Assembly: GCF_018977255.1 (NCBI RefSeq)
Contig: NW_024704742.1
Coordinates: 558,001 to 622,000, forward strand
Direction of reading: 5' to 3'
From: Callorhinchus milii
Taxonomy: Eukaryota
DNA: 64,000 nucleotides
Shown here: in pieces, positions 19,745 through 40,250 of the stretch
Numbering within the stretch: position 1 is the stretch's first letter
Layout: every line of letters starts with the position of its first letter
Translations under genes and position numbers: made by a program
The notes under the pieces: model-generated
Told to the model about the DNA's origin: nothing
Databases searched by the model: none
Seen by the model: the letters and a program-made list of their open reading frames with translations, nothing else

Positions 19745-20365
19745 CAGGCTGCCGAAACCCTCACCCACGCATTCGTCAGCTCAAGGCTCGATTACGGAAA
19801 CTCCCTCCTCATCGGCCTTCCCAACTCTTCCCTTCACAAGCTGCAGATCATCCAAAACTCTGCAACTCGTGTACTCTCGCGCACCAGGGTCCGCGACCCC
19901 ATCACTCCCACCCTCACCCGACTCCACTGGCTCCCCATCTCCCAGAGGATCGAGTTCAAGATCCTCGTCCTCACCTTGAAGGCCGTCCATGGCCTTGCCC
20001 CCTCCTACCTCTCTGACCTGCTGATTCCCTACCAACCTGCCCGCTCTCTTCGTTTATCAGGCTCCGGCTGCTCCATGTCTCCTGCCCGACCATCGGTGAC
20101 CCGAGCTGGGGGTCGGGGTGGGGGAGGGTGGAGGGCAGGGGGGAAGCAGGGAGATTGAAAGCACGGTCGAAGAGGAGGGTCTTGAGGGAGGTCTTGAAGG
20201 TGGTGAGGGAGGGGCGAAACAGGGATGGAGTTCCAGAGGATGGGTGCAGAGTGGCGGAAGGTCCGCCAGTCAATAGTGGGGGATGTGAAGCAGGCTAGAG
20301 CCCGCTGAACGGAGGGAGCAAACAGGGGGTTAGGAGGTCGGAGAGGTAGAGGGGAGCAAGACTGT
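19745..20365. mobile_element. Two L2 fragments joined tail-to-tail (+ 19745-20097; - 20098-20365)
   Basis: Plus part encodes RLHWLPISQRIEFKILVLTLKAVHGLAPSYLSDLL; minus part encodes FKTSLKTLLFDRAF. Confidence 0.8.
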
Positions 20366-21189
20366 GGAGAACATGGAGCACATGGAGAACATAACAGTAG
20401 CTTATGAGAAAAGGGGCTTAAATTGCACAGGTTTAGTAAAGTTACAGATCTTGCATTTATGAGAAAACCTTCAGCCACTGAGTGTTCTACCAAAACCACT
20501 TTAGCCTCATTGCTTTTCTCCCAGTCTTCAAAATTATCCTAAAAACATCAACCACAGTCAATGTCTTTAATCTCTTATTGGCCTTCTTGGTATTAACCAC
20601 CATGGTAAGCACTTTGAGGTGACCTTTTAAGTAAAAGTTACTAGATAAAAAAAATCAAATTGTTTACAGCCACCAGAATTAAATAGGTTGATGTATGAGA
20701 GCTGTCAGCTCTTGCTAGTGAAGCAGGTAATAATTTGCAGAGTAGAGGTAGCAGGTGAGGAGAAGGACTACAAGAGATTAAATATATGATGGGGTAAAGG
20801 AATGGAGGCATTTGAAGCCAGGAGGAGCCGATGGACTTAGGGACTCTAGTACAGGAGAGAATGCAGGGAGCAGATTAATTGGAGTTTGTGGATTGATGAG
20901 GGTTTCAGTTGCAGCCGAAGCAGAGTTGTCAGGGACCAGATGAAAAACTAATAGAATAGGGGTATATGAAACAAAACTCTGAAATGTTGTACTGCCTCTG
21001 TGAGCTGCAATAAGCAACTGAGGTGAGGAGACATTAATGGAAGCCTAGTAGGATAGTCTACATTTTGTGGATGTTTTGTTAGAGAATGTTAAGGCCCACC
21101 TAATTGTCTGATGTCTGATAGGAAATTGGTCAGAACAGTGTTGGTCCTGGATTTGAGGGTAGAACGATAACAATAACAAAATTACATGT

Positions 21190-22839: not shown

Positions 22840-23388
22840 TGACCGACGCGCCGCCGCTCGTCTCCAACGTAAACAAACGCGGGCCGCGAGCAGCACTCAC
22901 CGCGCTCCCTCCCGCCCACCACCGCCACAACCAAACCTGCTCGGCCGGAGAGCGGCGCCACCCAATCGCGAAGCCGCAGCCTCCCGGCGGAAGCGGCCCT
23001 CGCGGCCAATCGCTTTCGCCGCCGGGGGTGGGCGGGACCTCACCGCCCCGCCTCTCTCTCCGGGAAGGTTTGGTTGCGCCGCGGGGTCGGTAGCGTAGCA
23101 ACCGCCGTCGCGCATGCGCCCTGCTGAGAGGAGGGGGGCGGGGCAACGGGTAACCGTTAGGATTTAAATACTAAAACAGCACCCAACCCCCCCCCCTCCC
23201 CCCTCCCCCTCGCGCCCCCTTAATGTCAAAGCGGGGAGTTCGCTGTTGTTTTTCTCTACAGTGTAATCGTTACTGTTGGACTGGGGGAAACGGACGGTTG
23301 GGAGACGTCATTTCCGGTCTGTTGGACGGACGGATGGACGACGGGCGCCATGGCAACGGCAACTCACTGACTGACTGACTGACAGAGA
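22840..23388. promoter_or_regulatory. Bidirectional CpG-island promoter shared by centrin and BBS12
   Basis: CpG-dense. CCAAT boxes near 22962 and 23007; GC boxes near 23030 and 23137; NRF1 palindrome GCGCATGCGC 23110-23119; X-box-like GTAGCGTAGCAAC 23090-23102 and GGCGCCATGGCAAC 23344-23357. Flanked by a minus-strand donor (22790) and a plus-strand donor (23389). Confidence 0.85.
23280..23388 (+). other. BBS12: Probable non-coding first exon of BBS12 (5' boundary uncertain)
   Basis: Ends at donor GA|gtgagt (23389). Matching acceptor ttccctttgtatttgcag| ends at 24963, 30 nt before the BBS12 ATG. Confidence 0.6.
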
Positions 23389-23396
23389 GTGAGTGA

Positions 23397-24540: not shown

Positions 24541-24993
24541 TTCTAGACAAAAGGAAAAGATAAATGCTAGTACACTTATACATGGTGCACATACGTAGAG
24601 TTTTATTTATAGTATAGCCACTATCATAATCCAGTATCCATTATCTTATGTTTTACATTATAAATGATGAAAGTGATCTTTGTAGTATAGTCAGGAAGCA
24701 TTTCTGTAATTTTATTACATTGGAATATGCAACACAGAAACAGGCCATTCAGCCCAACTGGTCTGTGCCGGTGTTTATGCTCCACATGAGCCTCCTCCTG
24801 CCCTTCCTCAACTAAGCCTTCAATTTGACAAACTTTATTACATTTCTCCACTTCCCACACACACAGTATTCTATTTATAAGCACAAATGTGTTAAGAGTA
24901 TTCTATTGTCTAGAAGAAAATAGTCATTATTTTGACCAGCGTTATTTCCCTTTGTATTTGCAGCTCTTTGGAATACTCTGTGGACTTTTAATC

Positions 24994-27147
24994 ATGAGGT
25001 CACATATTGGCCTAGAACAGCTCGCAGCACTGGCAGCATCGGGCAGATCGCTGCTTGGCTCAATCAAATCCTACAAGTTTATTGTTGATGACGAGACTGA
25101 TGAATCGGCTGTGACTTGCTCTGCATTCCGACTTCTAGAGAACCTGCACTTAAATGGCCCTATAGGACAGCTGCTGAATGAGACTGTGCAGACACACCAT
25201 AAACTATACAAGACTGGAACCTCCAGCCTTCTTTTCCTTGTTGGAGCATGGAGTAAAGCCGTTTTAAATTGTTTGAATGAAGATATCCCCATTCCTACAA
25301 TAGTCTCTGTGATGTCTGAAGGTCTAGACAACGCCATAGAGGCGCTAGAAACATGTCAGCTACACATTGATAATCTTTTAGAAAACTTTAACTCAAAACA
25401 AAATGTACTAACAAGTAAACCTGGAAGATTATCATGTGGTTCAGATACTTCCTCCAGACATTTAATCAGTGATGGACACTCAGTGGCAAAGCTACAAATT
25501 TCACATCAGTCGAATCCATCAAAGAAAATGGATTCCGTTGAAAGCTACAGTGTTAGCCACGAGAATGATCAGTGCAAGCAATCTTTTTCATGCCATGTGA
25601 AATGTTTCAAAAGTACATTGCCAGCAGCTGGTGCCTCTCCTAGTCAAAGTAAATCAAGTTCCGTCTTCAGTGGAAAAAATATAAAACTTCATCTCAGTCG
25701 ACACTTCAGGATGTCTGATGTTGGGACACAAGAAGAAGCTTTGTCAGATAGTTTCGATGAAAGTTCCTCTACAGTGGCAGCTGATTGTGCCACTTTCAGA
25801 GCATTGGCTATGTCGCTGAGTCATGGAAACCAAAGTGCTATGCAGCTAACAATAGAGGCTTACAGAGTTCAGATTCAGTATGATCGAGTGGCAAACAGTG
25901 TTTCAAGAACTCTCCCTCAATTTGACATTGATAAACTTGTTACATGTTTGTTGCCAGGACTTCCTGAGCATTATTCCTGTGTTAATACTGGTTTCATCAC
26001 ATTACTCTCAGGGGAACAGCCTATTGTTGTCCAGCATCTATCAGGACTGTCTCTTCATGTTATCCTCATAGATGGAGATTTGACTCATCAATACCATCAT
26101 CCAGGATTCAACCGTGTTACTAATATGAAGATAGTTGCTAAGAGTATTGATAACACGTTTAAAAGTGTGGAAGAAGAATGGTTAAATAATGCCATCGAAA
26201 TATTTCGTAAATATCATGTTAACGTAATTCTAGTAAAAGGAATAGCATCTCCATGTTTAATGGAGAAGTGTATCCAAAATAATATACTAGTAATTCAGCA
26301 AGTGAAAGACAACGTAGTGCAAGGCTTTGTGGAGGCCACAGGGGCTATTCTTATTACTTACATCACACAGGTAAAAGAGAATTGTGTGGGCACTGGAGCA
26401 CACCTTTGTTTTTGGAAAGCGGGTCATGGAAATTCACCAGACATGAGAGAAAGAGTTGCTGTACAGATAAGCTGCTTTAAAATTGCTGTTATCACAGTGG
26501 TGCTTTGTAGCCCTGTAAACTGTAAACTGCAGGTAATAGGAGATCAATTGTGGAGCTGTGTACATCGTTTGCACCATGCCCTCAGTGAGCAACGAATCTT
26601 TCCAGGTGCAGGAGCCACTGAACTTATGTCCCTCTGCCACCTGAAACGGCTCATATCAGAAAAGGCTGCTCTAAAGCCCCAAATAAATGCTACTGATTGC
26701 ACTGGTCCACATTGTTCATCAAGGCGTACAGAGGCTGATGTACTTTACAAATCCCAGATTCTGCAGTTTTTGGCTGATGGCTGGAGAGAATACCTTATGA
26801 CTGCCATGTATAATACCGGCATGTATAGAACACCACTAGATGCTATGTCAGAAGTACAAAGATGTGTCAATGAAGATGTGGGTCTCTTTGCTATAATCCC
26901 CAATGTGTCCGACGAATCTACTGCAGAAAGGGTTGGTCAATGTTCCTGGCAATTTGGTGGCACTGTGAGTGAGAACCGTATGAACTCCAAGGTGTATGAT
27001 AATGTGACAGTTAAGCTAGAGAGCTGGCGAAGGGCTCTAGATCTCGTGTTACTCGTGCTGCAAGCAGATGTTGAAATCATCACCGGTTACAGAGCTAATA
27101 CCTCTAGACTTATTGAAGAGCAACAAAAACAAATTACATTTGTATAG
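24994..27147 (+). CDS. BBS12: Bardet-Biedl syndrome 12 protein (group II chaperonin-like), about 717 aa, single coding exon
   Basis: Long intronless ORF. N-terminus HIGLEQLAALAASGRSLLGSIKSYKFIVD...GQLLNETVQ...TGTSSLLFLVGAWS and C-terminus VYDNVTVKLESWRRALDLVLLVLQADVEIITG match BBS12; chaperonin FPGAGATE motif present. First ATG after the acceptor is 24994. Confidence 0.96.
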   Translation: MRSHIGLEQLAALAASGRSLLGSIKSYKFIVDDETDESAVTCSAFRLLENLHLNGPIGQLLNETVQTHHKLYKTGTSSLLFLVGAWSKAVLNCLNEDIPIPTIVSVMSEGLDNAIEALETCQLHIDNLLENFNSKQNVLTSKPGRLSCGSDTSSRHLISDGHSVAKLQISHQSNPSKKMDSVESYSVSHENDQCKQSFSCHVKCFKSTLPAAGASPSQSKSSSVFSGKNIKLHLSRHFRMSDVGTQEEALSDSFDESSSTVAADCATFRALAMSLSHGNQSAMQLTIEAYRVQIQYDRVANSVSRTLPQFDIDKLVTCLLPGLPEHYSCVNTGFITLLSGEQPIVVQHLSGLSLHVILIDGDLTHQYHHPGFNRVTNMKIVAKSIDNTFKSVEEEWLNNAIEIFRKYHVNVILVKGIASPCLMEKCIQNNILVIQQVKDNVVQGFVEATGAILITYITQVKENCVGTGAHLCFWKAGHGNSPDMRERVAVQISCFKIAVITVVLCSPVNCKLQVIGDQLWSCVHRLHHALSEQRIFPGAGATELMSLCHLKRLISEKAALKPQINATDCTGPHCSSRRTEADVLYKSQILQFLADGWREYLMTAMYNTGMYRTPLDAMSEVQRCVNEDVGLFAIIPNVSDESTAERVGQCSWQFGGTVSENRMNSKVYDNVTVKLESWRRALDLVLLVLQADVEIITGYRANTSRLIEEQQKQITFV

Positions 27148-27410
27148 CGCTTTTCACTTTCCTGTTGGGAGGACATCCCAAGGCGCTGGACAGTCAGGGA
27201 TTTGGACCCGAGCAAGGGGTTGAGATCAAGAGGGGCGGAGGCAGGGAGGGTAGATGTAGGAGGGTGGCTGAGGATGCGGTTGAAGAGGAGGGTCTTGAGA
27301 TATACCTTGAAGGAGGCAAGGGAGGGAGTAAGACGAAGGAACTGTGGGATGGAGTTCCAAAGAGCAGTAAACAGCTTACTGTGACTGCGCTACCGACGTC
27401 TGTGGAGAGC
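27121..27410 (-). mobile_element. L2-clade LINE 3' end overlapping the BBS12 stop codon
   Basis: CAACAAAAACAAATTACATTTGTATAGCGCTTTTCAC...GGGAGGACATCCCAAGGCGCTGGACAG...GACCCGAGC closely parallels the copy at 39780. Confidence 0.85.
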
Positions 27411-28922
27411 AGTCAGATCCCTCCCCAAAGCCCATTTTGGAGAGTACGATTGAAGCAGTGAAGAACACATGCACCATCCAGCTACCTGGTCAAGAAACGT
27501 CAGGGTGAGAGCCTAGTATGGTTCAGTGCTAATCCTTCCCGCTTCATGTTGTGAGATTTCTGTCTTTAGGTACTTTTCCTGGCCTGATTGTTGACTCCTT
27601 GTCTTCACTTTTGGCACCTACAATCCCCTGCCCCCTCCCCACTCGACCATTTTCTTGAAAATCACAAGGCTTCATTTTTCGAAAGTAAGCCGCAGATGTG
27701 AAAGTGTGAACTTTCCATGTTATTCCACACTCTCACATGAAAGAAAATGTGGGGCCAGGAAGGTGCGTGCGTGTGTGTGTGTGTGTGTGTGTGGGTGGGG
27801 GGAACGAGGCAAGGGAGTATGACTTTAAATATGATTTAGGAATTACAGAAACAAAAGTCACCAGAAGATGGAATTAATTAAAATGCTGGGGTTCAGGAAG
27901 CTCTAAATAAAGGAAATCTTAGTAAATTAATAAAGGATAATAATTGAGTAAAGAAGGTCTAGCAACCTAACGGTCCAGCCTTGGATTGAACTAATTGATA
28001 TAGATTTATGTAAATCAAAATCAGACCAATAACCAGCACTGAAACATGCAGATCATCTACTTGTTTCTATACTGGATATCAATTCTAAGGGAAAGGTGTT
28101 TGTCTTGCATGAAGTCCAGTGAACAATGTGGAGAGAATGGTGCAGAAAGTGTTGCACTACAGTATTTTGATATGAGTCATAATTTAGCAAATTGGGGAAA
28201 ATGGGAGAGTTTAAACCTGGGAGAAAGGGAGCTGAGGAGAATAACGGAAGGATATGACTACATCACAGAGATTCAAGACAGACTGGCAACAGACTTCAAC
28301 GTTGCAAGGCTTATTATTCACACGTGTGACAATGTAATGCAGCAGTTTGATGGAAATGTTGTCAGTTTGATTGCGTAGTCTATTGCACTTGCTGGAAATC
28401 CATAGAATTAACACTTGCTGCCAGTATTGAATGTTTAATGGGTATCAGTAGGACAGTTTTATTTCCAGGGGTTGTCAGATAGCGCACCATAAACCTGTCC
28501 CGGCCTTTGCTCCTACTGTGTCCAAAAACAGAAGCATTGCTGTTACACTGAAAATACCAGAGATGAGTTGTTTCATCTGCAATGACCAAAAGTAGTTTAG
28601 CTTAAAGACTACATTGGGTAACAGATTAGCCATTAGCTATCGGTTTGTTAAGATAAGTAACTTCATTACTCTACCCCAAAACTATACAAAGTATTTCCCA
28701 AATTGTGATTTTAGTATCTCACACCGAAAACTATTCACAAAAGATAACTAAGAAGCTGTGAATAAAATTATTCTACTTTACGTTTCCCGCTAGAGATTCG
28801 AGTTCTTGAAGTACACATAGACCCTGGGACTGGATCTTTGACCACTTTCTCCATTAGTCAGCAAACCAGAGGAAGTCCTCTACACACGTTTGAAACTGTT
28901 GTGTTGTGGCTTACTCGAAAGA

Positions 28923-29248
28923 AATAATAATAATAATAATCCTTGTATTTGATATAGCGCTTTTCACGTCGGGAGGACGCCCCAAAGCGCTTCACAGAAC
29001 ACACTGTAAAGTGAATTGACTGTATATTTGTGGGCGAACGCGGCAGCCAATTGCGCACAGCAATGTCCCACAAACAGTCGTAGATTGAAAATGACCAATT
29101 TATTATTGTTTTTGGTTTTGGAGGGATTATTATTAGGCTCTGTGTGGAGTAAGGAAACTTGCCCAAGGTTTGGCCCTCTGCCTGGAATTGAACTCAGGTC
29201 TCTCACTTGCAAAGCGAGTGCTCTAACCACTGAGCTACAGGACTCCAC
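28923..29248 (-). mobile_element. Full-length tRNA-derived SINE (short variant)
   Basis: Reverse complement of the 12329 copy; its 3' half is nearly identical to 9859-10050. Confidence 0.92.
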
Positions 29249-29804
29249 AGGTCAAATCCCCCAACAAGTCACTAAAAGTTTCGCTGCTCCAGTTTGATCG
29301 TCCATCAAATCTCACTGATTCAACGCAGCATATCTTTTCACTTGCGGTTGTGGTCATTGGTCAGATATCGGCTTCAGAATCACGCTTACATTTCCCCATC
29401 AACGCAGTCCAAATTGAGTGTGTTGTAAATATCTAATACAATTCACGTGCATACGGCCTTCTCACTTCGGGGGAATGTCCCAAATCGCATTAACTCTTGA
29501 AATGCACACGATTGACAATTTGTTGTCCATCGATATTAACACTTCACTTCATGTCACTTATTTCAATTATCTTGCGGGTTATCTTGCGAATCTCTAGCGG
29601 GTATTGATGATTGATGAGCTACATCACTATTTAGTACTGATAAATGATCCAGCAGCTAGTTTATCCTGCTAAACCTACTAAACAAATGCACTTACTCTGT
29701 TGAGGGTTTACCACAATCAGATTTTGCCGAGCTGATGGCCATAGAGAAGGGACAAGTAGCAATGAAGAATCTGCAGAATTCATCTTGGGTGTAGATTACA
29801 ATAA

Positions 29805-30025
29805 CATAATAATAATTCTTGCATTTGATATAATGCCTTATCACATCTAGATGTCTCAAAGCGCTTCACACAATATACTGTAAAGTGAATTGACTGTATA
29901 TTTTGTGGGTGAAACGCAGCAGCCAATTGCGCACAGCAGCGTCCCACAAACAGCCGTGGATTGAGTGACCAAATTTATTATTATTTTATTGTCAAGGGAA
30001 TATTACCCCAGAAAACGATTAATCA
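29805..30025 (-). mobile_element. tRNA-SINE 3' part
   Basis: Same body and tail as other copies; further partial copies at about 7500-7700 (-), 30530-30730 (+), 33836-34070 (+) and 34565-34700 (-). Confidence 0.85.
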
Positions 30026-31544
30026 GGATGACACTTGGGATATTGATGGGATTTTCCCTTTCCCTTTACAATTTTATCTGTAAATATATATATATATATA
30101 TTGAATACTAAGAAATATTGGTTAATATTTGTTTTGACCCTTCACGTCTTCGTTTAGTTGCTGAATGTCATGCTTTGTATTTCCAGCACAGAATCATAGA
30201 ACTTACAGCGAACAAGGGGGCATTTGGCCCATCAACTCTGTTGGAGCTAACTAATCTAATCCCAATTCCTATCTTCTTCTCCATAACCTTACATATTCTC
30301 TGCAACTCTTTATCCAATTATAACCAGTTATGTTAATAAAAGGTGGTTGCCTTTTAATACAAACTTTCACCAGACGGTGGAGCTATGAATGAGAGTTACC
30401 TGTTGTCATAAATTAACCGAATAATACTTATTAATAGAGTACAATAGTCTAGTGTCCTGTCTATCCACTTTTAACGTCAGCAGATTTGCCAGTTCAGGTT
30501 AATAGCAAAACAAGTAGCTTTAAATATCTAATAATAATCCCTCCAAAAAACAATAATGATTTGGTCACTTCAATCCACGACTGTTTGTGGGGACACTGCT
30601 GTGCGCTATTGGCTGCCGCGTTTCGCCCACAAATATACAGTCAATTCACTTTACAGTCTATTCGGTGAAGGGCTTTGAGACGTCTCGAAGATGTGAAAAG
30701 CGCTATATTAAATACAAGGATTATTATATCAGATTTGTGAAGGTATTTATCATTAGCAGATTGTTTACATTATATCTTCTACTTATAACTTCTGTGAGAG
30801 TTTTTTTTACTTTTGTCCTTCATAATTATAAACCCTGGAGCATGGTTTCGCCACTATTCTCTTCCAAATGAGATTCAGCATTCTTAACAGCGATTGTGAT
30901 TTGAACCGTGGCAGAAGAAAAGACGAGCTAACTAAAGGAGAAATTAAATTCTTGAGTGTGTGTCCAAGGTAGTCCTGAAGCACAATTAGTTGATAACATG
31001 GCAGGAGAGGGTTAGGGTTCGCATCAAGAAGATCCTTGTATGCCAAACACATGCCCTCAGGATCGACTGTGCCAGGAGAGGGCCGTGGCGGGATCACAGG
31101 ATGTTGGTATTAATAAATCTTTGCATTCGATAATAGCTCCTGTTGATGTCAAGCCACCTCAAAGCACTTCACAGTTAATTCCCGTCGAGCCGTTCCTATA
31201 AATAGCCAGAAAGCGAATGACTGGTTTTATTTAGAGAATCGTTGGCCAGGACGTGGGAGAAACTCTTTTTTTTCCTTTTGGAATATCATGATGCAATCCT
31301 TAGCGCCCATCAGAAAAGGCAGACCTCAGTTTATCTACTCATTTGAAGGATGGCATCTGACAATGCAGTGTCCAGCCCCGCACCCCCCCCACTGGAACGT
31401 CAGCCTTGAGACTTGAAGTCTTGATCCGACAACTTTTGACCTAGAGAGCTGCCAACTGATTTGGCAGAAACATCACCGTGCATTGTTACAACGTAAAGCC
31501 TTACCCTAACAATGACACTCGCAACTCAAGTTATTTAGTGTATT

Positions 31545-31960
31545 ACCCTCACGGATGAAATATGGAGAAGGGATATTGAAAGGGTTGCGTTGAGCCACAA
31601 TGAGTGCCGTGAGGAACGGTAGAGGAGGTCCGAATGCAATCATAGGTAAATGTAGACCGACAGCCGAAAAATAAATAAAATAAAAGTAAAGCATAAAGCA
31701 GCAGAGGAACAATCTAAAAAAGTACGGGAGAACAAGGGATCAATGCAAAGTTTGAAAGGCGTGACAGGACAAATGAATTTCACAGGTAGAATAAGGGGCA
31801 AAGTTAAAGGAATGAACTCAGATGCAGTAATAAAACCACAAACGTGTTAACGATGTGGTAAACTGGGACATGTCGGTCAGTGCTGAATGTAGATCCAAAA
31901 GAGTGTCAGAATTGTGGAAAAAAAGGGGCATATGCTGAAAACTTATAAACTGGGGGACAA
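31545..31960 (+). mobile_element. Degenerate LTR-retroelement gag relic with two CCHC zinc knuckles
   Basis: C*RCGKLGHV...EC from 31845 and CQNCGKKGH from 31904, with stops and frameshifts. Confidence 0.7.
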
Positions 31961-32376
31961 ACATGAAGAGAAAAGTGCTAGTTTGGAACTAAAAGACTTA
32001 GTAGGACAAATGAATTGGGAAAACTGAGCTGAACTGAGCTATGCAAGGCCAGGCAGGGATGGTTCCCAGCGACCCACTGATATGCCTCCAGATGAAACAG
32101 AAAGATGATTCACTGGCCCATCTGAAGGCACTCAGACAGATAAGTCTTGCTTAATACTTGTGAGGAGTTAGAGAAGATCAAAATGCCCTTTCTCTCTCTC
32201 TCTCTCTCCACAACTTCTTCTGGCTCTCCCTGGCAGGACAAAGATATGATGATACCCATTAGGATGACTTAAATAAAGAAATTAACAGAAGTAGCCATTG
32301 CCAAGTTAAAAACGATTGCAGAGAGACAAAAAAAAACGTATTTAAGTAAGAAAATGAGAAACTGCTGGGAGGGATT

Positions 32377-33094
32377 TGTTGGGGAAAAAAATTGGGTTAT
32401 AAAAGATAATTTTGCAGTTACAAAATGGCCAACATGTTATGTGTTTTATGTTTTTATGCCTCAGTTTTGTTATAGTATTTTGTCTTTGTGTTTATGTAAT
32501 TTGTTTTTAAGTTAACAAAATGACCAAAGTAGGTCTGACTTTACTCTGGACGCAGAGTATAAACTGGATTCTACCTATGTTAGATATGTACTGGATAAGG
32601 GAAAGACAGGCTATGCAGCAGAAAATGTGACAAGTTGAAAGAAAGAGAGCGAGCGAGAGTACAGGAGGGGTTAATTGGAAAAAAAAACTAGCGAGCGAAA
32701 GATTCAATGTGAAACTAATAACAGAAAAGACAGGTGTTTTAATAACGCAATCAAGATGTCCTTTAGAAAAATGAACACAGCTTTGTGCTGAAAAGATTTT
32801 ATTGAACTGAGCAGCAGTTCCTGGATACTTTTGGGTGATCGACCAGGGAACAGTACAGCAGTACCTGGATCCCGTTTGGTGGATTAAATTGGACATTACT
32901 CCTCCATCTCTTCCGCAACATTTGGTTTGGCCAATCTTAATCATTGTGAACTGTACGTGGATACGTAAGCATTATCGTATTATTTTAATTGCCTATAACC
33001 GTTGTGAATCTGAATTAATAAACGTCTATTTCTCTTATATATAAGATTTAGGTCAGTTTTTACTTCACCGCAGAGTTAAAATGGATATCTTACA
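32377..33094 (+). mobile_element. Probable 3' LTR
   Basis: Purine tract GGGAGGGA directly before TGTTGG; AATAAA near 33016; ends TTACA (TGT...ACA termini); abuts a SINE head fragment. Confidence 0.6.
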
Positions 33095-36000
33095 GTGTAT
33101 GGAGTAAGGAAACTTGCCTAAGGTTTCGCCCGGCCCGGGAAACAAACCCAGATCCCCTCGCTTGCGAGGTAAACGTCGAGACTCCACCTGAAGACTTACC
33201 TCTGGTTGAAGAGGCAAGTCCTCAGGTGAGTAAAGAGGGGGTGAGGCAGAGAGATTGAGGTCAGAGGTGAATGACTATTTTATAGAAATTCCCGATGACT
33301 AAAGTGTTTGAGGCTTCCGTCTTTGCATTTTCCTTCCTTGTTCAACATATCAGTTTATTTTGGCTGTTGAAGCTAACTTTCCCAATGCAGCTTGCCCAGT
33401 CGTGTTGAGGAGATTCTTTGTCTAGTGCCTGCATCACATATATAAAAAAAATCACTATTTTCATTGACTATTGATATTGCCAGGATTTAGCTCTGTTTTC
33501 TCCACGTGGCAGCAAACTTCCTGTATTAACCACGGAGTGTGGAGGCCAGACACTGTTGCTGTGTGAACACACTTACGGAAGGCAGGGTCAGTCATATAAA
33601 CACACATTACATAAGTGAAAAAGCTGTAAAACTTTTTTTTAAAAATGGAAGAGTATTGCAAGTAGATTGAAATGCCTTTTTGAATGTACGAGATTAAAAA
33701 AAATAGAAATTCTTCAATTAACAAAAAGCTGCAGGCCATTAATAGATGTTATAATCTCACTTTGAACTGAATTAAACTCTAGATTTCCTCCAATTTAGAA
33801 ATGTCTTTTCAGAAGTGGGTCAAAAGCAGGAAATACCACGAAACCTTGGGCAAGTTTCCTTACTCCACACAGAGCCTAATAATAATCCCTCCAAAAAAAA
33901 ATAATAAATTGGTCATTTTCAATCCACGACTGTGAGTGGGACATTGCTGTGTGCAATTGGCTGCCGCGTTCGCCCACAAATATACAGTCAATTCACTTTA
34001 CAGTGTGTTCTGTGAAGCGCTTTGAGACATCGACGCTATGTCAGATGTAAGGATTATTAGAATTATTGTTATTAACCCGAGGCGGGGGGGAGCAATAAAA
34101 CACCTGGAAATCTCTCTTTAAACCACACAAAGCAATGATTAAAGTATATCAACAGCCTCACCAGCAATTTTTTCCAATTATTAAGTAACCTTTATAATTC
34201 TGAACCCTAAGATAACGATACGTTTTATATAGCGTTTAAAGGTGGGAAATAAAATTAAGACGATATGACAAAAAAGGAAGGTTTTACTGTTAATCCGTGA
34301 AGACAATAATAATGACCAACTGGTGATTATCCTTGTGTGGGGCGGGGGGGGGGGGGGTGGGAGGTGAAGTGGGGTCTCGTTGGAGCTGAACTGGCTCCGG
34401 GGCGACATGTTGGGCAACGGGATGTCAGAATCAAGCCAACTGTGTGGGGATTTGACTGACCAACGGGAAGGACAGGTGAACTGAAATGACTATTTGACTT
34501 ATTTCCTGAGTCAGACGAGTTTACAGCACCTCATGGCCCTGCAGATTACAGCCTAGCCTGACTCATAATAATAATAATAATAATGATCCTTGCATTTGAT
34601 ATAGCGCTCGTCACGTCTTCCAGACATCGCAAAGTGCTTCACGGAATCCGCTGTAAAGTGAATTGATTGTATGTTTGTGGGTGAAATGCGGTGGCCAATT
34701 GGTGATAAACAAGAAGGTAGGTGAAATAAGTTGCCAAGGCACTGACTGCACCACTAGTCCTTATGTTACAACTTGATACAGGTGAGGTCCTACCTTTAAC
34801 CAGGAAAATACCAGCAACGCAATTAGTGGCATCATTGCACCTGTCCTCGTGAGTCTGCTGTTGGCTATCACTACACTCTGCAGACGCAGAACTGGTTAGA
34901 GCGAGTGTGTCCTAGACCCATTTTTAATTAATGTTGTGTTTGGACTTCAATAATATTAACAACCATTACCTCAGTTTAAAAAATAATATTTTGTGTTCTC
35001 TCTTTTGCTGCCAATGATCAGGTCTGACATAAGCATTAACGAGTTAAAAGAAACCTTCCCTTCTGTGCCTGTTGTGGCAGCTTGGGATTCATGGGCAAAC
35101 AATGCAGAATTTAGGAAAAGTCTGAGAGGGAAATTGGCTGTAAACATGTCTGTATCCACATCCTCCTGTGCTGACCTGTTAAATGAATGTATTCTCTTAG
35201 TCTGTCCTTCTCTTGTGCAATTATACTACAGACAACATCAGGGAAAACTGGAGCAGCTGTCCTGTTGTGTGACTTAGTCATTTACATTGCAAGTAGACTC
35301 ACAGTAAACATAGATCGCAGACACTTTCATTTGCCAGCGACTCAGATTAAAAACAAATGACTTTGTTTTATTTTTATAAAAGCCACGAGTGAACAAGTGG
35401 CTATAGCTGTTGAAAGAGCATCCAGAAATGTGGCAGCAGAATTTGTGTTTGAACAATTTGTCACCGGAGGTACGCGACCACAACTGGAACAGCACGACTG
35501 AATGGGATTTTCATTTGTTTAATGTTATATTCTTCCTCCTCTTTAGCCTGTCACTCTCCCTCCCTTTCCACCCCCCAAAAAACACACAGATTTGTGAACA
35601 AGAGAACAGGCGGGTGAACGGTTCCCAGATTCTACTGATCCTACACTCGAAGAGCTGTACATCCACAGTGGCCTGTAGCTAATCTTCCCATTTTCCCTGG
35701 AAACAAGCAATTTTGGGGGTCCATCATTAGCTGATTTCTAAAAATATCAATCTTTTCATTACTTGCACTAATAACAACATTTGATATAGCACCTCGTCAC
35801 ATCGAGAAGTTTCAAAGCACTTCACAGGGTACACTGTAAAGTGTATTGACTGTGTATTTTGTGGGTGAATGTGGCAACCGATTGCACACAGCAGTGAGTG
35901 TCACACAAACAGCCTTGGAGTGAATGATCCATTTTTTATTTGGGGGAAAATGATGGCCAGGACACCGGGAGAAACTCCCTCCTCTTTTCGAATAGTGCCG

Positions 36001-37589
36001 TGGGATCTTTAATGTCCACCTGAACAGACAGATGGGACCTCGGTTTAACATCTCACCGGTGTGGCACCTCTGATAATGCAACCCTCCTCCCAGCAAAACC
36101 TGAATTGTTTTTGTGGGAATTCTGTTAGAAGACCTTCACATAAGAAGGGGTAGTCATATATGAGGCATCCTACCCATAACCAGTTGCACAGCTGCAACTT
36201 TAATTCAATAAATACCCTTGACTGAATGCAAAAGAACAGCTGGTTGTGGTACAGCCAGTTTATTGTATCCCCTAATGTGTTCCCTGCAGCCCTATCCGTT
36301 TAATCAGTCGTGAGCAAGAACATTTGTTTCCAGATATCATCATCATCCCAAATCTGAAATCCTTTTACAAGCAGAGGATAGGTTTACCGATCGTATCATG
36401 TCCAAAAACTTTGCTACGAGACTTTTGTTTGAGGTTCCGCAATGAATTGTCCATCCTCAGCCCCCCAAAAAATGACACAGAAAAATAAAACATTGCATTT
36501 CCTTTCTACTAGTATCTGTGCTAGGGGTGCTGTACTGTAACATGAATTATGCTCGTGAAAGGCTTCGGATTTGAGATTCAAACACGGTGTGAAGATTTTT
36601 GGGGAAGGGGCTGAAAGACTGGTCTGCTAACAACTGTGGTTACTTACCGAACATTTAGGGATAACGTATGGAGGCAATCATACAATGCGATGCAAACATT
36701 TCACGGTTTGTTTCTGAAGGACATTTCTTGCTTATTTCAGCTCAAGTTGTTGCAAAGAAAATAGGAAGTTAATTCACTCCGTGGAAGAAAGATACAATAA
36801 AGCACAATTTCCTCTTTCACTCCCCAACCTCCTTCCCACTCTACGCTAATTCCTAATGTGTTAAGCCATGTACTTGTTTTGGCTCAATAGTGAGGGGAAC
36901 AACAATAATTGATGGACATCGCCCGCTTTCCTTGGGGAGGGAGGGGGCTCAGGTATGAACTTGGTAGAAAATCTCTTCACTTCATTATTACATATAGGAT
37001 TCATTCTACTTTCTGGTGCCCAAAACTGAACACAGTAATCCAGTTGTGGCCTAACCAATGATTTGTTGATGTACTTCTGTACTCTATGCCCCTATGTAAT
37101 AAGAAGTCTTTTTTTTAAGGATATCCTGCAAAACGATTTGAGATCTCCCAAACAGAATAGCGGTATATCAAATACAAGGATTATTAATAATAACATCTCA
37201 CTCTCTGATTTAGTGTTTCCCCTTCCTTCTCAGGAATCATGATGTTTCTTCCCCCCCTCCCACCTCAATAACGTAGCACAAAACCTCATCTCATAACTCA
37301 AATCACTCACATTCTGAAACGCAGCTTGCAAGTTAAAAGCGAGGGAGTGAAATGCACAAATCCTCTTTATATAATTGATGATCAAGAGTCCATTTCCCAC
37401 AGATAAATGTTCTCTTGAAGTCTCTTCTCCCATCTTTCCCAAGTTCCAAAATATATATATATACATACATAGGAGCATAAATAGTATTTGTAAATGCTGC
37501 TCGGAACATAAGGTGCATTAACTCCAGGGAATCCCAAGCATATCATGCCAACTGGGAATGACGTGAACAAGAACTTGGCTCCCATGAGA

Positions 37590-37845
37590 TTTTGTCTCGG
37601 AATTCGAATGCTCTGCCCCAGAAGCCGTTAGAGGCAGAATCAATTAGAAGGGAGATAAAAGCCTGCCTCTACGATCTCTCCAAGAGAGAAGTAAGATAAT
37701 TATTTGGAGAGGACAAGTTTGCAGGGCTATGGGGAGAGAGTGGGGGAATGGGATTGAATTGGATAGCTCTTTTCAAAGAGCCTTCACAGACATGATGGGC
37801 CGAATGGCCTCCTTCTGTGCTGTATAGTTCTATGATTCTATCTAC
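37590..37845 (+). mobile_element. CR1 LINE 3' end
   Basis: GATGGGCCGAATGGCCTCCTTCTGTGCTGTA...TTCTATGATTCTAT tail. Confidence 0.85.
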
Positions 37846-39779
37846 AGTATTACTGTTATTAATACTGTTATTTCGTCTGTCTCTACAACGTTGGTGGTGT
37901 ACTGCACTGCGTGCTTTTGCCTTTCCCCTGGATTTCCGTGCCCCCCCCACCCCTTTATTTGTTTTTTTTTAATATGAATTGCACTGCTGAGGAATTGCTC
38001 TCTTCACCTGTCCGGCTGTTTAACTGTAATTCTGGGCTGCAGAAGGAGACCAATGGGGTCCGTATGAGGTTGTAATCAGCAACGCGCTTGTCTTGCCAGA
38101 CATCCAGAGAGTGGTTTTGTGCACATTTGAAAGTAACTTGTGAAGATACTGACGGTCATCGGTGCAAGGGGGGAGCAACTTCGCATCAAACGCCAATCGC
38201 TCCGTAGATTCTCCAAAGCAAGTGTTGCGGAGATGGAAGAAATTGGATTTGCTCAGAGCCTGGAAGAAAGATTTAAAGGAGAGTTGAGGATCGAGGTTCT
38301 GCATCTGCAGGTGGATGTGGTCCAGTGCTGAGATGAGAAGTCCAAAGCTTGCGAGTGACCCACATCCTACCATTCAGTCCCACAACCCATCATGTTTTGA
38401 CACCAATACACTGCTCTCCTGCTACTGTGGCCAACAATCCTCCGGATAAGTTGGGCCGTTATTTCGTCTCTCATTTGTGGAAACCTGCTGTCAAAAATGC
38501 ACGCTGTTTGTGGCAATAAAAAAGGCATTACACTTGATAGCAATTACCCTCCAACAATGCAACACTTTAACTGCTATGAGCTGCAAGTCTCAACGAGAGA
38601 ATAAAGTTTAAACTTCCTCAATAATCAAGCATCGTTTCCTAAACTCTGCACCCCAATCATATTTCAGTGTAATGTTTTGATTCCAACATATTTGGTGTGC
38701 AAGTGTATCTTATTGGGAGAAATATTACGCCTCGAGCTTGTGGATACAGGACTAATCCCGTAATAAAAAGAAATTTGTATTACATCTGGGAATTATTTAT
38801 TGGAAAAAAAATCATACGAAACTAATTCAGGTGTTATAATAGGTTAGTAGACTGACCTCATTGGCTGCTACATTTCATCCATAAAACACTGCCAATCCAC
38901 TTTACAATATAATCTGTGAAGCGCTTTGAGACGTCTCAATGACACGAGAAGGTGCTATATCAAATACAAGGATTATTATTATTTTTTCACATCTGGGACT
39001 TGGATCCAAATTCAGAACAAAATGACAGGACGAAAGCTTCCCCTCCCTGCCGTCTACCAGCACATAGGAAAGGAGTCGACAATTAATTGTTAGTATTTTG
39101 CCAATTACATGTTTTCCTTTAAGTCGTTTGTATCCCATTTATTTATGTATATTACTCTCTGTATGATTTTCTTTTTTTTAAATATAAACTTTGTCCTCTT
39201 TTCTCATCTTTCCATCTCCCACCTCCGTTCCTGTCAATGTCTTCGCTACCTATTAATCACATCCTGTCTTTGTGCTCCTCCACATTAATGTCCCTGCTCC
39301 AAAAATCACAGGACCTGGTTAGTTGACCAGTGCAACTATGTGCGAGTTGCTTTGATCATTGTGACCTTCCAACAGCTGCTGCTACTGTAATAATATCCAC
39401 GTAGTAACATGGATATTTCTATTAACTATGTTAGAAATTGCTCAGAAAAGCCAAAGTCAATATTTCAGTTTACACTAACTGCCCCGAGCTAAGGTTTCGC
39501 AAACCAAATATTTTGTTTACTGAATATGTCAGGTATTTGAAACATTTACAGGCACTGGGATTAAAAGATGGACGCAGCTTAGCAATTTATTTATATTGTT
39601 AGATAAAAACGGAATGAAGATTTTTGACAGGTTCATTTTTTTGGACCATTAATATTGATGTGTTAGGTGATCCTACATGGACCATGATTCAGCGGTCACT
39701 CACTCCATGGCTGTTTGTGGGACGCTGCTGTGTGCATTGTCTGCCAGGTTTCACCACCCACAAAATAAACAGTCAATCA

Positions 39780-40250
39780 ACAACAAGATTACATTTGTAT
39801 AGCGCCTTTCACGTCGGGAGGATGTCCCAAGGTGCTGGACAGAGTACAGCATTTTAGACCCGAGCTGGGGTTGGGGGGGAAGGGAAGGGAGGTGAAGGGG
39901 GTGGTGGCCGATGGCGTGGTTGAAGAGGAGGGTCTTGAGGCGGAACTTGAAGAAGGCTAAGGAGGGGGCGAGGCGGAGTGACTGGGGGATGGAGTTCTAG
40001 AGGTTGGGGGTAGAGTGGCTGAAGGCTCTCCCGCCAATGGTGGGGCGGGTGGGGCGGGGGACGTGGAGCAGCCAGAGACGGCTGAGCGGAGGGAGCGGGC
40101 GGGTTGGCAGGGGGTTAGGAGGTCGCAGAGGTAGGGTGGGGCAAGGCCGTGGAGGGCTTTGTAGGTGAGGACCAGGATCTTGAACTGGATCCTCTGAAGG
40201 ATAGGGAGCCAATGGAGTTGGGCGAGAGTGGGGGAGATGGGGTCACAGAT
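39780..40250 (-). mobile_element. L2-clade LINE 3' fragment
   Basis: Antisense tail plus RT C-terminal sequence (PTRPTIGGRAFSHS). Confidence 0.85.

What the first reader, a model, noticed from the sequence alone, without database searches (positions are those of the whole stretch)
27100..27410. BBS12 C-terminus and stop codon supplied by an antisense L2-type retroelement tail
Seen: the last codons QQKQITFV* (CAACAAAAACAAATTACATTTGTATAG) are the reverse-complement tail of an element that continues through the 3' UTR. The same sequence occurs non-coding at 39780 (CAACAAGATTACATTTGTATAGCGCCTTTCAC) and 23845. Inference: an insertion replaced the native final residues and stop, i.e. transposon exaptation in the coding end of a ciliopathy-gene orthologue.
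Basis: partly seen in the sequence, partly recalled or inferred. Interest (0 to 1): 0.7.

Follow-up and report, generated by a model that had tools for sequence, protein, structure and literature searches.

The report
Jumping-gene tail rebuilds BBS12 ending
In the elephant shark, the last seven or eight amino acids and the stop codon of the cilia gene BBS12 come from the tail of a jumping gene, but that tail spells almost the same ending that sharks have, so the protein was barely changed.

Summary
The window encodes Callorhinchus milii BBS12 (CDS 24994-27147). A roughly 300-bp, 5'-truncated L2-type LINE fragment lies antisense from about 27121 to 27418. It is 75-81% identical to three other copies in the window. 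A junction model puts the join at 27121 or 27124 and favours element origin of the last 7-8 codons and the TAG by 10^7-10^8. Two spliced contigs from one study cross the junction.

The protein end is not new. Seven of 8 sharks and the coelacanth end in TFL*, 5 of 8 sharks at the same length as C. milii's TFV*, and 103 of 112 orthologues end in a hydrophobic pair. The best reading is an ordinary insertion, primed at a native Gln codon, that replaced like with like and was tolerated. It is not shown to be exaptation for a new function. No empty site, duplication or displaced native end was found, and no other chimaera was available.

Both RefSeq models splice away at the repeat edge, probably a masking artefact. 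The scan noted a similar element-derived end before, in epiregulin of this genome.

The parts
23208..23388 (+). Non-coding first exon of BBS12, GT donor at 23389
   Evidence: Contig 16 of run X3 joins 23208-23388 to 24964; contig 9 of run X2 joins 23233-23379 plus 5 unplaced letters to 24964; donor, acceptor and reading checked
24994..27147 (+). BBS12 coding sequence, 717 aa, in one exon (acceptor at 24964)
   Evidence: best hit 100% to a C. milii BBS12 record; Pfam Cpn60_TCP1, E 1.9e-22
27115..27120 (+). Last clearly native codons, Glu708-Glu709 (sharks have E-[E/D/N] here)
   Evidence: Junction model; C-termini
27121..27124 (+). Probable 3' junction: native Gln codon plus first base of the following Leu codon, matching the element's (CAA)n tail (inferred priming microhomology)
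   Evidence: Junction probability 68-78% before 27121 and 18-25% before 27124 over four parameter sets; the native codons are inferred from shark proteins, not seen as DNA
27121..27132 (-). Element's terminal trinucleotide tail, read on the gene strand as Q-Q-K-Q
   Evidence: the same kind of tail precedes most of the other L2-type copies listed
27133..27150 (-). Conserved 3' block of the element, read on the gene strand as I-T-F-V-stop; on the element strand it holds UGUAA, the terminal repeat unit of eel UnaL2
   Evidence: UnaL2 repeat from PMC1636434 passages
27158..27163 (+). 6-bp insertion found only in this copy, best read as a tandem duplication; off-frame it spells T-F-L
27165..27181 (-). 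Short hairpin (6-bp arms, 5-base loop) shared with the two sister copies; candidate L2 recognition stem-loop
   Evidence: present in 3 of 3 folds, but the whole-tail z-scores are only -0.24 to -1.0
27246..27389 (-). Remnant of the element's ORF2 C-terminal end (48 stop-free codons)
   Evidence: 70-71% identical to peptides inside two other C. milii gene models, which hit 5 and 6 places in the window; its naming as an L2 ORF2 end is recalled
27390..27418 (-). Poorly aligned 5' end of the truncated element; 5' junction near 27418 (uncertain)
   Evidence: By eye; local alignments stop at 27362-27371
29598..29607 (+). Last exon used by RefSeq XP_007906475.1 (ends DGY*), needing a GC-AG intron 27120-29597
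38208..38331 (+). Last exon used by RefSeq XP_042193332.1, needing a GC-AG intron 27120-38207

Best explanation
An L2-type LINE RNA was reverse-transcribed into the last codons of BBS12 by ordinary target-primed reverse transcription (inferred). The gene's sense strand was cut near the native Glu-Glu-Gln-Leu codons, and its end paired over about 4 bases with the RNA's trinucleotide tail (inferred). About 300 bases were copied before 5' truncation, and the native last 7-8 codons were deleted or have decayed (inferred; no remnant seen). Read antisense, this element family has a built-in frame ending I-T-F-V-stop (shown), and at BBS12 it is in frame and gives the same tail length as in most sharks (shown). 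The old BBS12 end, a hydrophobic pair on a flexible tail, was thereby kept. The allele was nearly neutral and became fixed, while alleles in the other two frames (33 and 112 added residues today) would more likely have been purged (inferred). The event is holocephalan, roughly 100-150 million years old or younger (inferred).
For: Junction model: log10 likelihood ratio 7.3-8.3 for an element-derived end over an all-native end; the five codons 27121-27135 alone give about 10^5 against a join inside T-F-V. The 39793 copy encodes the same ITFV* in one antisense frame, and the 5280 copy of the sister family encodes LAFI*. Terminal motif: 92 of 112 orthologues end FL and 103 of 112 end in a hydrophobic pair. 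The last residue is L in 106, V in 5 and I in 1 of 112, so V is tolerated. 6 of 6 named invertebrates end hydrophobic-L. Residues 710-717 have pLDDT below 50, as a free tail would. The tail length of 13 bases is inside the 12-17 range I count for 6-7 of the 10 other copies (by eye), so landing in register is not improbable once priming is at the Gln codon. Short 3-5 bp duplications and target-site truncations are normal for L2-clade inserts (PMC4245944 and PMC2666801 passages). Spliced contigs in X2 and X3 cross the junction by 37 and 72 bases with no listed difference there. Copy-to-copy distance is JC 0.22-0.30, against a BBS12 protein distance to sharks of 0.55-0.62.
Against: The match to the native end is closer than chance plus a loose filter easily gives. 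P is 6e-4 for TFV against TFL, and 1.6e-3 to 5.7e-3 for the last 7 residues in 7 of 8 sharks (not corrected for the fact that the locus was picked by eye). All 5 other family-A copies in the window have 2 bases between the last repeat unit and the conserved block; this copy has 1, so an extra one-base change is needed to put the TAG in frame. No empty site, no duplication (7-mer match; 197 of 2000 random places do as well) and no displaced native end were found. Rays (5 of 5) have remodelled the end and a lamprey has lost the motif, so the constraint is not absolute. The junction template was fitted after seeing the data, which inflates the ratio by perhaps 10- to 30-fold (my estimate).
Confidence: 0.62

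Rival explanations
1. Homology-guided replacement. The native last nine codons resembled the element tail in register, and this longer pairing, during integration or later repair from an L2 template, aimed the event and set the register. The like-for-like end is then a product of the mechanism, not only of selection.
For: Back-translated shark ends can match 17-22 of the 27 bases in register (mean over synonymous codons 10.6-15.8). The length is identical to 5 of 8 sharks. The only departure from the pure repeat makes Lys where sharks have Arg or Lys.
Against: No precedent for in-register pairing of this length was in the passages I read. The best-case figure assumes favourable codons. C-to-A decay is common in these tails (44050 and 5280 copies). 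The native DNA was not seen.
Confidence: 0.2
2. The element joined at or just inside the native T-F-x-stop by microhomology (or landed just downstream, with a later deletion between the two look-alike motifs). The residues and perhaps the stop are then native, and the element only begins there.
For: E-E-Q-x-K-x-x-T-F-[LV]* aligns without gaps to the sawshark end EEQLKKGTFL*, 6 of 10 identical.
Against: The upstream codons fit the element tail about 10^5 better than native codons, and the all-native model has probability near 1e-8. 15 of 15 bases of the block match a sister copy, including the non-native I and V codons.
Confidence: 0.05
3. The main transcript splices out at a GC donor at 27120, as both RefSeq models have it, so the element end is a minor or unused form.
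For: Two RefSeq releases use the same donor.
Against: They use different acceptors, 29598 and 38208. The donor context is far from the GC-donor consensus (recalled) and sits exactly on the repeat edge. The contigs that carry the first intron spliced out run on unbroken through 27120 in X2 and X3. The UniRef model A0A4W3HZ94 ends QQKQITFV. Caveat: only 15 joints were shown and 1911 were not, and contigs drop rare forms.
Confidence: 0.05
4. The insertion is ancient, before chimaeras and sharks split, and the shark and coelacanth TFL* ends descend from it.
For: TF[LV]* occurs mostly in cartilaginous fish and coelacanth (9 of 112 orthologues). Chimaera DNA may evolve slowly, and a slower published rate would make the copy much older.
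Against: The non-coding copy is only JC 0.22-0.30 from its sisters, while the constrained protein has moved 0.55-0.62 from sharks. The paper that gives the slow rate rejects it. Hydrophobic-L ends occur in invertebrate orthologues.
Confidence: 0.04

Closest known systems
Transposable-element insertions into last exons of vertebrate genes (Sela et al. 2010, PMC2911107; abstract and passages)
   Same: An element sits in the last exon and is carried in the mRNA.
   Different: Those insertions usually affect the UTR. Here the element overlaps the coding end, supplies the stop and leaves a near-native motif.
C. milii L2-2_CM LINE and its partner SINEs, CmiSINEs and SacSINE1-CM (Luchetti et al. 2017, PMC5499810; abstract and parts 1-3 of 6)
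   Same: Same genome and the same kind of L2-type tail. The window holds many tail-sharing SINE-like copies (30 tail hits).
   Different: This copy carries an ORF2-like remnant, so it is a LINE end and not a SINE. The paper found all 104 + 34 SINE hits in mRNAs within 3' UTRs.
Eel UnaL2 and zebrafish ZfL2-1/ZfL2-2 (PMC1636434, PMC4245944, PMC2666801; passages)
   Same: 3' stem-loop followed by a short terminal repeat, with UGUAA present; 5' truncation; no long target-site duplication.
   Different: Here UGUAA is single and followed by a trinucleotide repeat. No RT domain is present in this fragment to place it on a tree.
Vertebrate BBS12 (chaperonin-like Bardet-Biedl protein)
   Same: Full-length, 50-60% identical to shark and ray orthologues, same core and a hydrophobic-pair end.
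   Different: The last 7-8 residues and the stop are of element origin, and it ends in Val, not the usual Leu.

Membership tests
L2-clade LINE fragment | Interspersed repeat with several dispersed copies | tested here: met
   6 matches against 0.12 expected; 75-81% identity to three copies
L2-clade LINE fragment | 3' end in a short tandem repeat, not poly(A) | tested here: met
   Trinucleotide tail at 27121-27132 and in sister copies; UGUAA unit as in UnaL2
L2-clade LINE fragment | Conserved 3' stem-loop | tested here: inconclusive
   Same 5-6 bp hairpin in 3 of 3 copies, but z-scores of -0.24 to -1.0
L2-clade LINE fragment | ORF2 coding remnant upstream of the tail (LINE, not SINE) | tested here: inconclusive
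   48 open codons shared at 50-78% identity with other copies. I recognise them as an L2 ORF2 end from memory; Pfam (0 of 3) and the Atlas (unnamed clusters only) gave no name.
L2-clade LINE fragment | Reverse-transcriptase phylogeny places it in L2 rather than CR1 or another clade | not testable with these tools
   The fragment has no RT domain, and no repeat library is held
L2-clade LINE fragment | 5' truncation with a short or no target-site duplication | tested here: inconclusive
   Similarity ends by about 27418; the best flank repeat (7 bases) is matched or beaten by 197 of 2000 random places
TE-derived coding end | Element sequence overlaps the reading frame and the stop | tested here: met
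TE-derived coding end | The element end is in the spliced mRNA | tested here: met
   2 of 4 runs laid (X2, X3; one study; RNA is the tool's guess, but the contigs are spliced) cross the junction; only X3 has 31 or more bases past the stop
TE-derived coding end | Orthologous empty site in a relative | not testable with these tools
   No genome held; no other chimaera protein found
Exaptation in the strict sense (element sequence kept for a new function) | New sequence or activity in the protein | tested here: not met
   The end mirrors the ancestral one in length and motif; activity itself was not assayed
Exaptation in the strict sense (element sequence kept for a new function) | Purifying selection on the element-derived codons | not testable with these tools
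   One species only; three runs show no listed difference in these codons, which is too little to measure selection

The most novel reading that the evidence does not exclude
The very end of BBS12 is a functional binding motif: T-F-[L/V]-COOH fits a class I PDZ-type ligand (motif recalled, no partner known to me). The L2 insertion first broke it, giving a read-through of about 110 residues in the family's usual phase. Selection, or in-register pairing, then rebuilt a mimic from element DNA through a one-base loss and a Gln-to-Lys change. BBS12 would be a natural swap experiment pointing to an unstudied motif in a ciliopathy protein. L2 tails, with their built-in hydrophobic-pair-plus-stop frame, would be a recurrent and mostly invisible source of protein ends in chimaeras, hidden by repeat-masked annotation.
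Probability: 0.2. Interest if true: 0.62.

Novelty: new member of a known kind. Interest (0 to 1): 0.36.

Why it matters
It is a clear case of a mobile element replacing a protein end without visibly changing it, which a protein alignment alone would call conserved. It draws attention to the hydrophobic last residues of BBS12, kept from invertebrates to humans on a tail with low structural confidence. It also shows a practical trap: both RefSeq models of this gene appear to have the wrong C-terminus because they splice around the repeat. As biology it is modest, because no new function is shown.

Tried and rejected
Whole-genome analysis: no genome is held for this window, so all copy statistics rest on the window's few copies.

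Other chimaera orthologues: none among 115 full-length hits (8000 candidates scored), none among 109 short candidates for residues 540-717, none among the members listed for five clusters.

Displaced native end: no F-L-stop in any frame at 27148-28500, and no second T-F-[LIVM]-stop there. The only T-F-L is the off-frame one at 27156 made by the 6-bp insertion; I read it as a tandem duplication, not a stranded native end.

Target-site duplication: the 7-mer at 27449 and a 6-mer at 27406 are not above background.

Naming the ORF2 remnant: Pfam gave nothing, the Atlas gave only unnamed clusters with low recognition scores, and the homologue search gave two C. milii gene models only.

Solved structures: no BBS12 entry among 26 matches, only CCT and thermosome chains that do not cover the tail.

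Runs: no holder is on record as RNA. X7 has pieces on both sides but does not cross the junction. X1 reaches only 30 bases past it and is not counted as bridging.

Literature: 'BBS12' + 'transposable element' + 'shark' gave 0 papers. Searches for element-derived stop codons and for the BBS12 C-terminus were seen as listings only, apart from PMC2911107, and showed no report of this locus. Supplements of PMC5499810 were not held; they contain the L2-2_CM tail alignment and the list of mRNA hits, which bear on family naming.

Full report
What the locus is. The long frame at 24829-27147 (+) is BBS12 of Callorhinchus milii: best hit 100% over 99% of the query, sharks and rays 50-60%, bony vertebrates 34-43%, Pfam Cpn60_TCP1. 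The coding sequence starts at 24994 in a single exon, after a non-coding first exon ending at 23388. No whole genome was held, so repeat statistics come from the window only.

The observation. The last codons and the stop share a 17-mer exactly with a copy at 39789. With up to 3 mismatches there are 6 matches, against 0.12 expected. The BBS12 copy aligns with sister copies from 27116-27128 to 27362, at 75-81% over the core, and patchily to about 27418 (by eye). On the minus strand 27246-27389 reads as 48 open codons. The same peptide occurs at several other places in the window and inside two other C. milii gene models. I recognise it from memory as the end of an L2 ORF2; no library named it. 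The tail has a short hairpin in 3 of 3 copies folded, not significant against shuffles, then UGUAA, the repeat unit of eel UnaL2 (PMC1636434 passages), then a trinucleotide repeat. So this is most likely a 5'-truncated L2-type LINE end, distinct from the TAA-tailed SINE-like copies that make up most of the 30 tail hits in the window.

Where the join lies. I compared, codon by codon, a native model (profile from 6 sharks and the coelacanth, with BBS12 codon usage; two sharks with short tails and the five rays were left out) with an element model. Over four parameter sets the join falls before 27121 (68-78%) or 27124 (18-25%). An all-native end is disfavoured by 10^7.3 to 10^8.3, and a join inside T-F-V by about 10^5. 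The template was chosen after seeing the data, so the true ratio is lower, but not by enough to matter. Sharks have E-[E/D/N]-Q-L at this place, so the native Gln codon and the next base would match the element's repeat over about 4 bases. That is an ordinary priming microhomology (inference; the native DNA was not seen).

It is transcribed this way. Of 24 runs listed I laid 4. In X2 and X3, from one study, single contigs have the first intron removed and run on to 27157 and 27192, past the junction by 37 and 72 bases. All 6 differences in each lie upstream of 26600. X1 holds an unspliced contig to 27150, and X7 does not cross the junction. Both RefSeq models leave the exon at a GC at 27120, the repeat edge, for different last exons at 29598 and 38208. 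The UniRef model A0A4W3HZ94 ends QQKQITFV. I read the RefSeq ends as artefacts of repeat masking (inference). Their junctions were not among the 15 joints shown, but 1911 joints were not shown.

The twist: the new end copies the old one. Of 113 non-Callorhinchus hits, 112 reach the last helix (one dropped). 92 end FL, 103 end in a hydrophobic pair, and 9 end TF[LV]. The last residue is L in 106, V in 5 and I in 1. Seven of 8 sharks and the coelacanth end TFL*, and 5 of 8 sharks are exactly as long from the conserved Trp (40 residues) as C. milii. Among distant relatives from a profile search, 80 of 146 new rows reach the last helix; 63 of 80 end in L and 53 of 80 in a hydrophobic pair. Of 10 looked up, 9 had names. 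All 6 invertebrates end hydrophobic-L; lungfish and caecilian do too; a lamprey does not. All 5 rays have remodelled the end to ..IS[VI]* or ..LSI*. In the model, residues 710-717 have pLDDT under 50. So the hydrophobic end is ancient and native, and the element re-created it.

How likely is that? ITFV* is a property of the element family: the 39793 copy encodes it too, and the sister family encodes LAFI*. The other two frames at BBS12 would add 33 or 112 residues. The 13-base tail is a typical length among the 10 other copies, so equal length follows fairly easily from priming at the Gln codon. What remains is the T-F identity (P 6e-4 for the last three residues, uncorrected for selection of the locus) and the phase. 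All 5 other family-A copies have one base more before the conserved block than this copy, and in that phase the TAG would be out of frame. These two points keep alive a longer in-register pairing (back-translated shark ends can match 17-22 of 27 bases) and a two-step history with a selected one-base loss. Five comparators are too few to decide.

Missing pieces. No native remnant and no duplication above background were found. That is compatible with L2-clade inserts, which have 3-5 bp duplications or truncate the site (PMC4245944 and PMC2666801 passages). No other chimaera was found.

Age. JC distances of 0.22-0.30 to three sisters give at most 0.11-0.15 per copy. At 1.0-1.1e-3 per site per million years (PMC5499810) that is about 100-150 million years, well after the 421-million-year split used in that paper. 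The BBS12 protein itself is 0.55-0.62 from sharks, which also argues against a shared ancient insertion.

Comparison with what is known. Insertions into last exons are common and usually affect the UTR (PMC2911107). All 138 SINE hits in C. milii mRNAs were in 3' UTRs (PMC5499810). I found no paper on this locus (one search gave 0; some searches were listings).

Verdict. A real feature and a new member of a known kind, with a like-for-like twist. Interest 0.36.

Noticed in passing
window 27120, 29598-29607, 38208-38331: Two RefSeq releases give BBS12 two different C-termini through a GC donor at the repeat edge; spliced contigs run straight through. The 38208 exon itself reads on the minus strand like an L2 reverse-transcriptase piece (recalled; Pfam gave no hit).
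   Followed up: partly
window 27156-27167: A 6-bp insertion unique to this copy makes an off-frame T-F-L followed by a codon one base from a stop, 9 bases behind the real stop. It would be in frame in the family's usual phase. Probably a tandem duplication, but an odd coincidence.
   Followed up: partly
proteins P0282 and P0283: UniRef models of C. milii cysteine dioxygenase (A0A4W3JV07) and RAB29 (A0A4W3GK35) contain the same ORF2-end peptide in sense orientation: mis-annotation or exonisation.
   Followed up: partly
proteins P0012-P0016 and P0169: All five rays have independently remodelled the BBS12 end (..NSFISV* type), and a lamprey record has a longer, non-hydrophobic end. Their DNA origin was not examined.
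   Followed up: no
window 27121-27389 and 39775-39990, minus strand: In both copies the ORF2-like frame stays open through the hairpin and the tail, with no stop before the terminal repeat.
   Followed up: no
window 19890-20369: Two L2-type pieces lie in opposite orientations, joined near 20091-20098; the second lacks its tail.
   Followed up: no
window 27324-31000: RNA-type runs X2 and X3 cover the unique stretches downstream of the stop while leaving most of the first intron uncovered, which hints at a long 3' UTR with several SINE-like copies in both orientations.
   Followed up: no
window 23370-23388: A four-base repeat just before the first-exon donor seems to vary in length between runs X2 and X3.
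   Followed up: no
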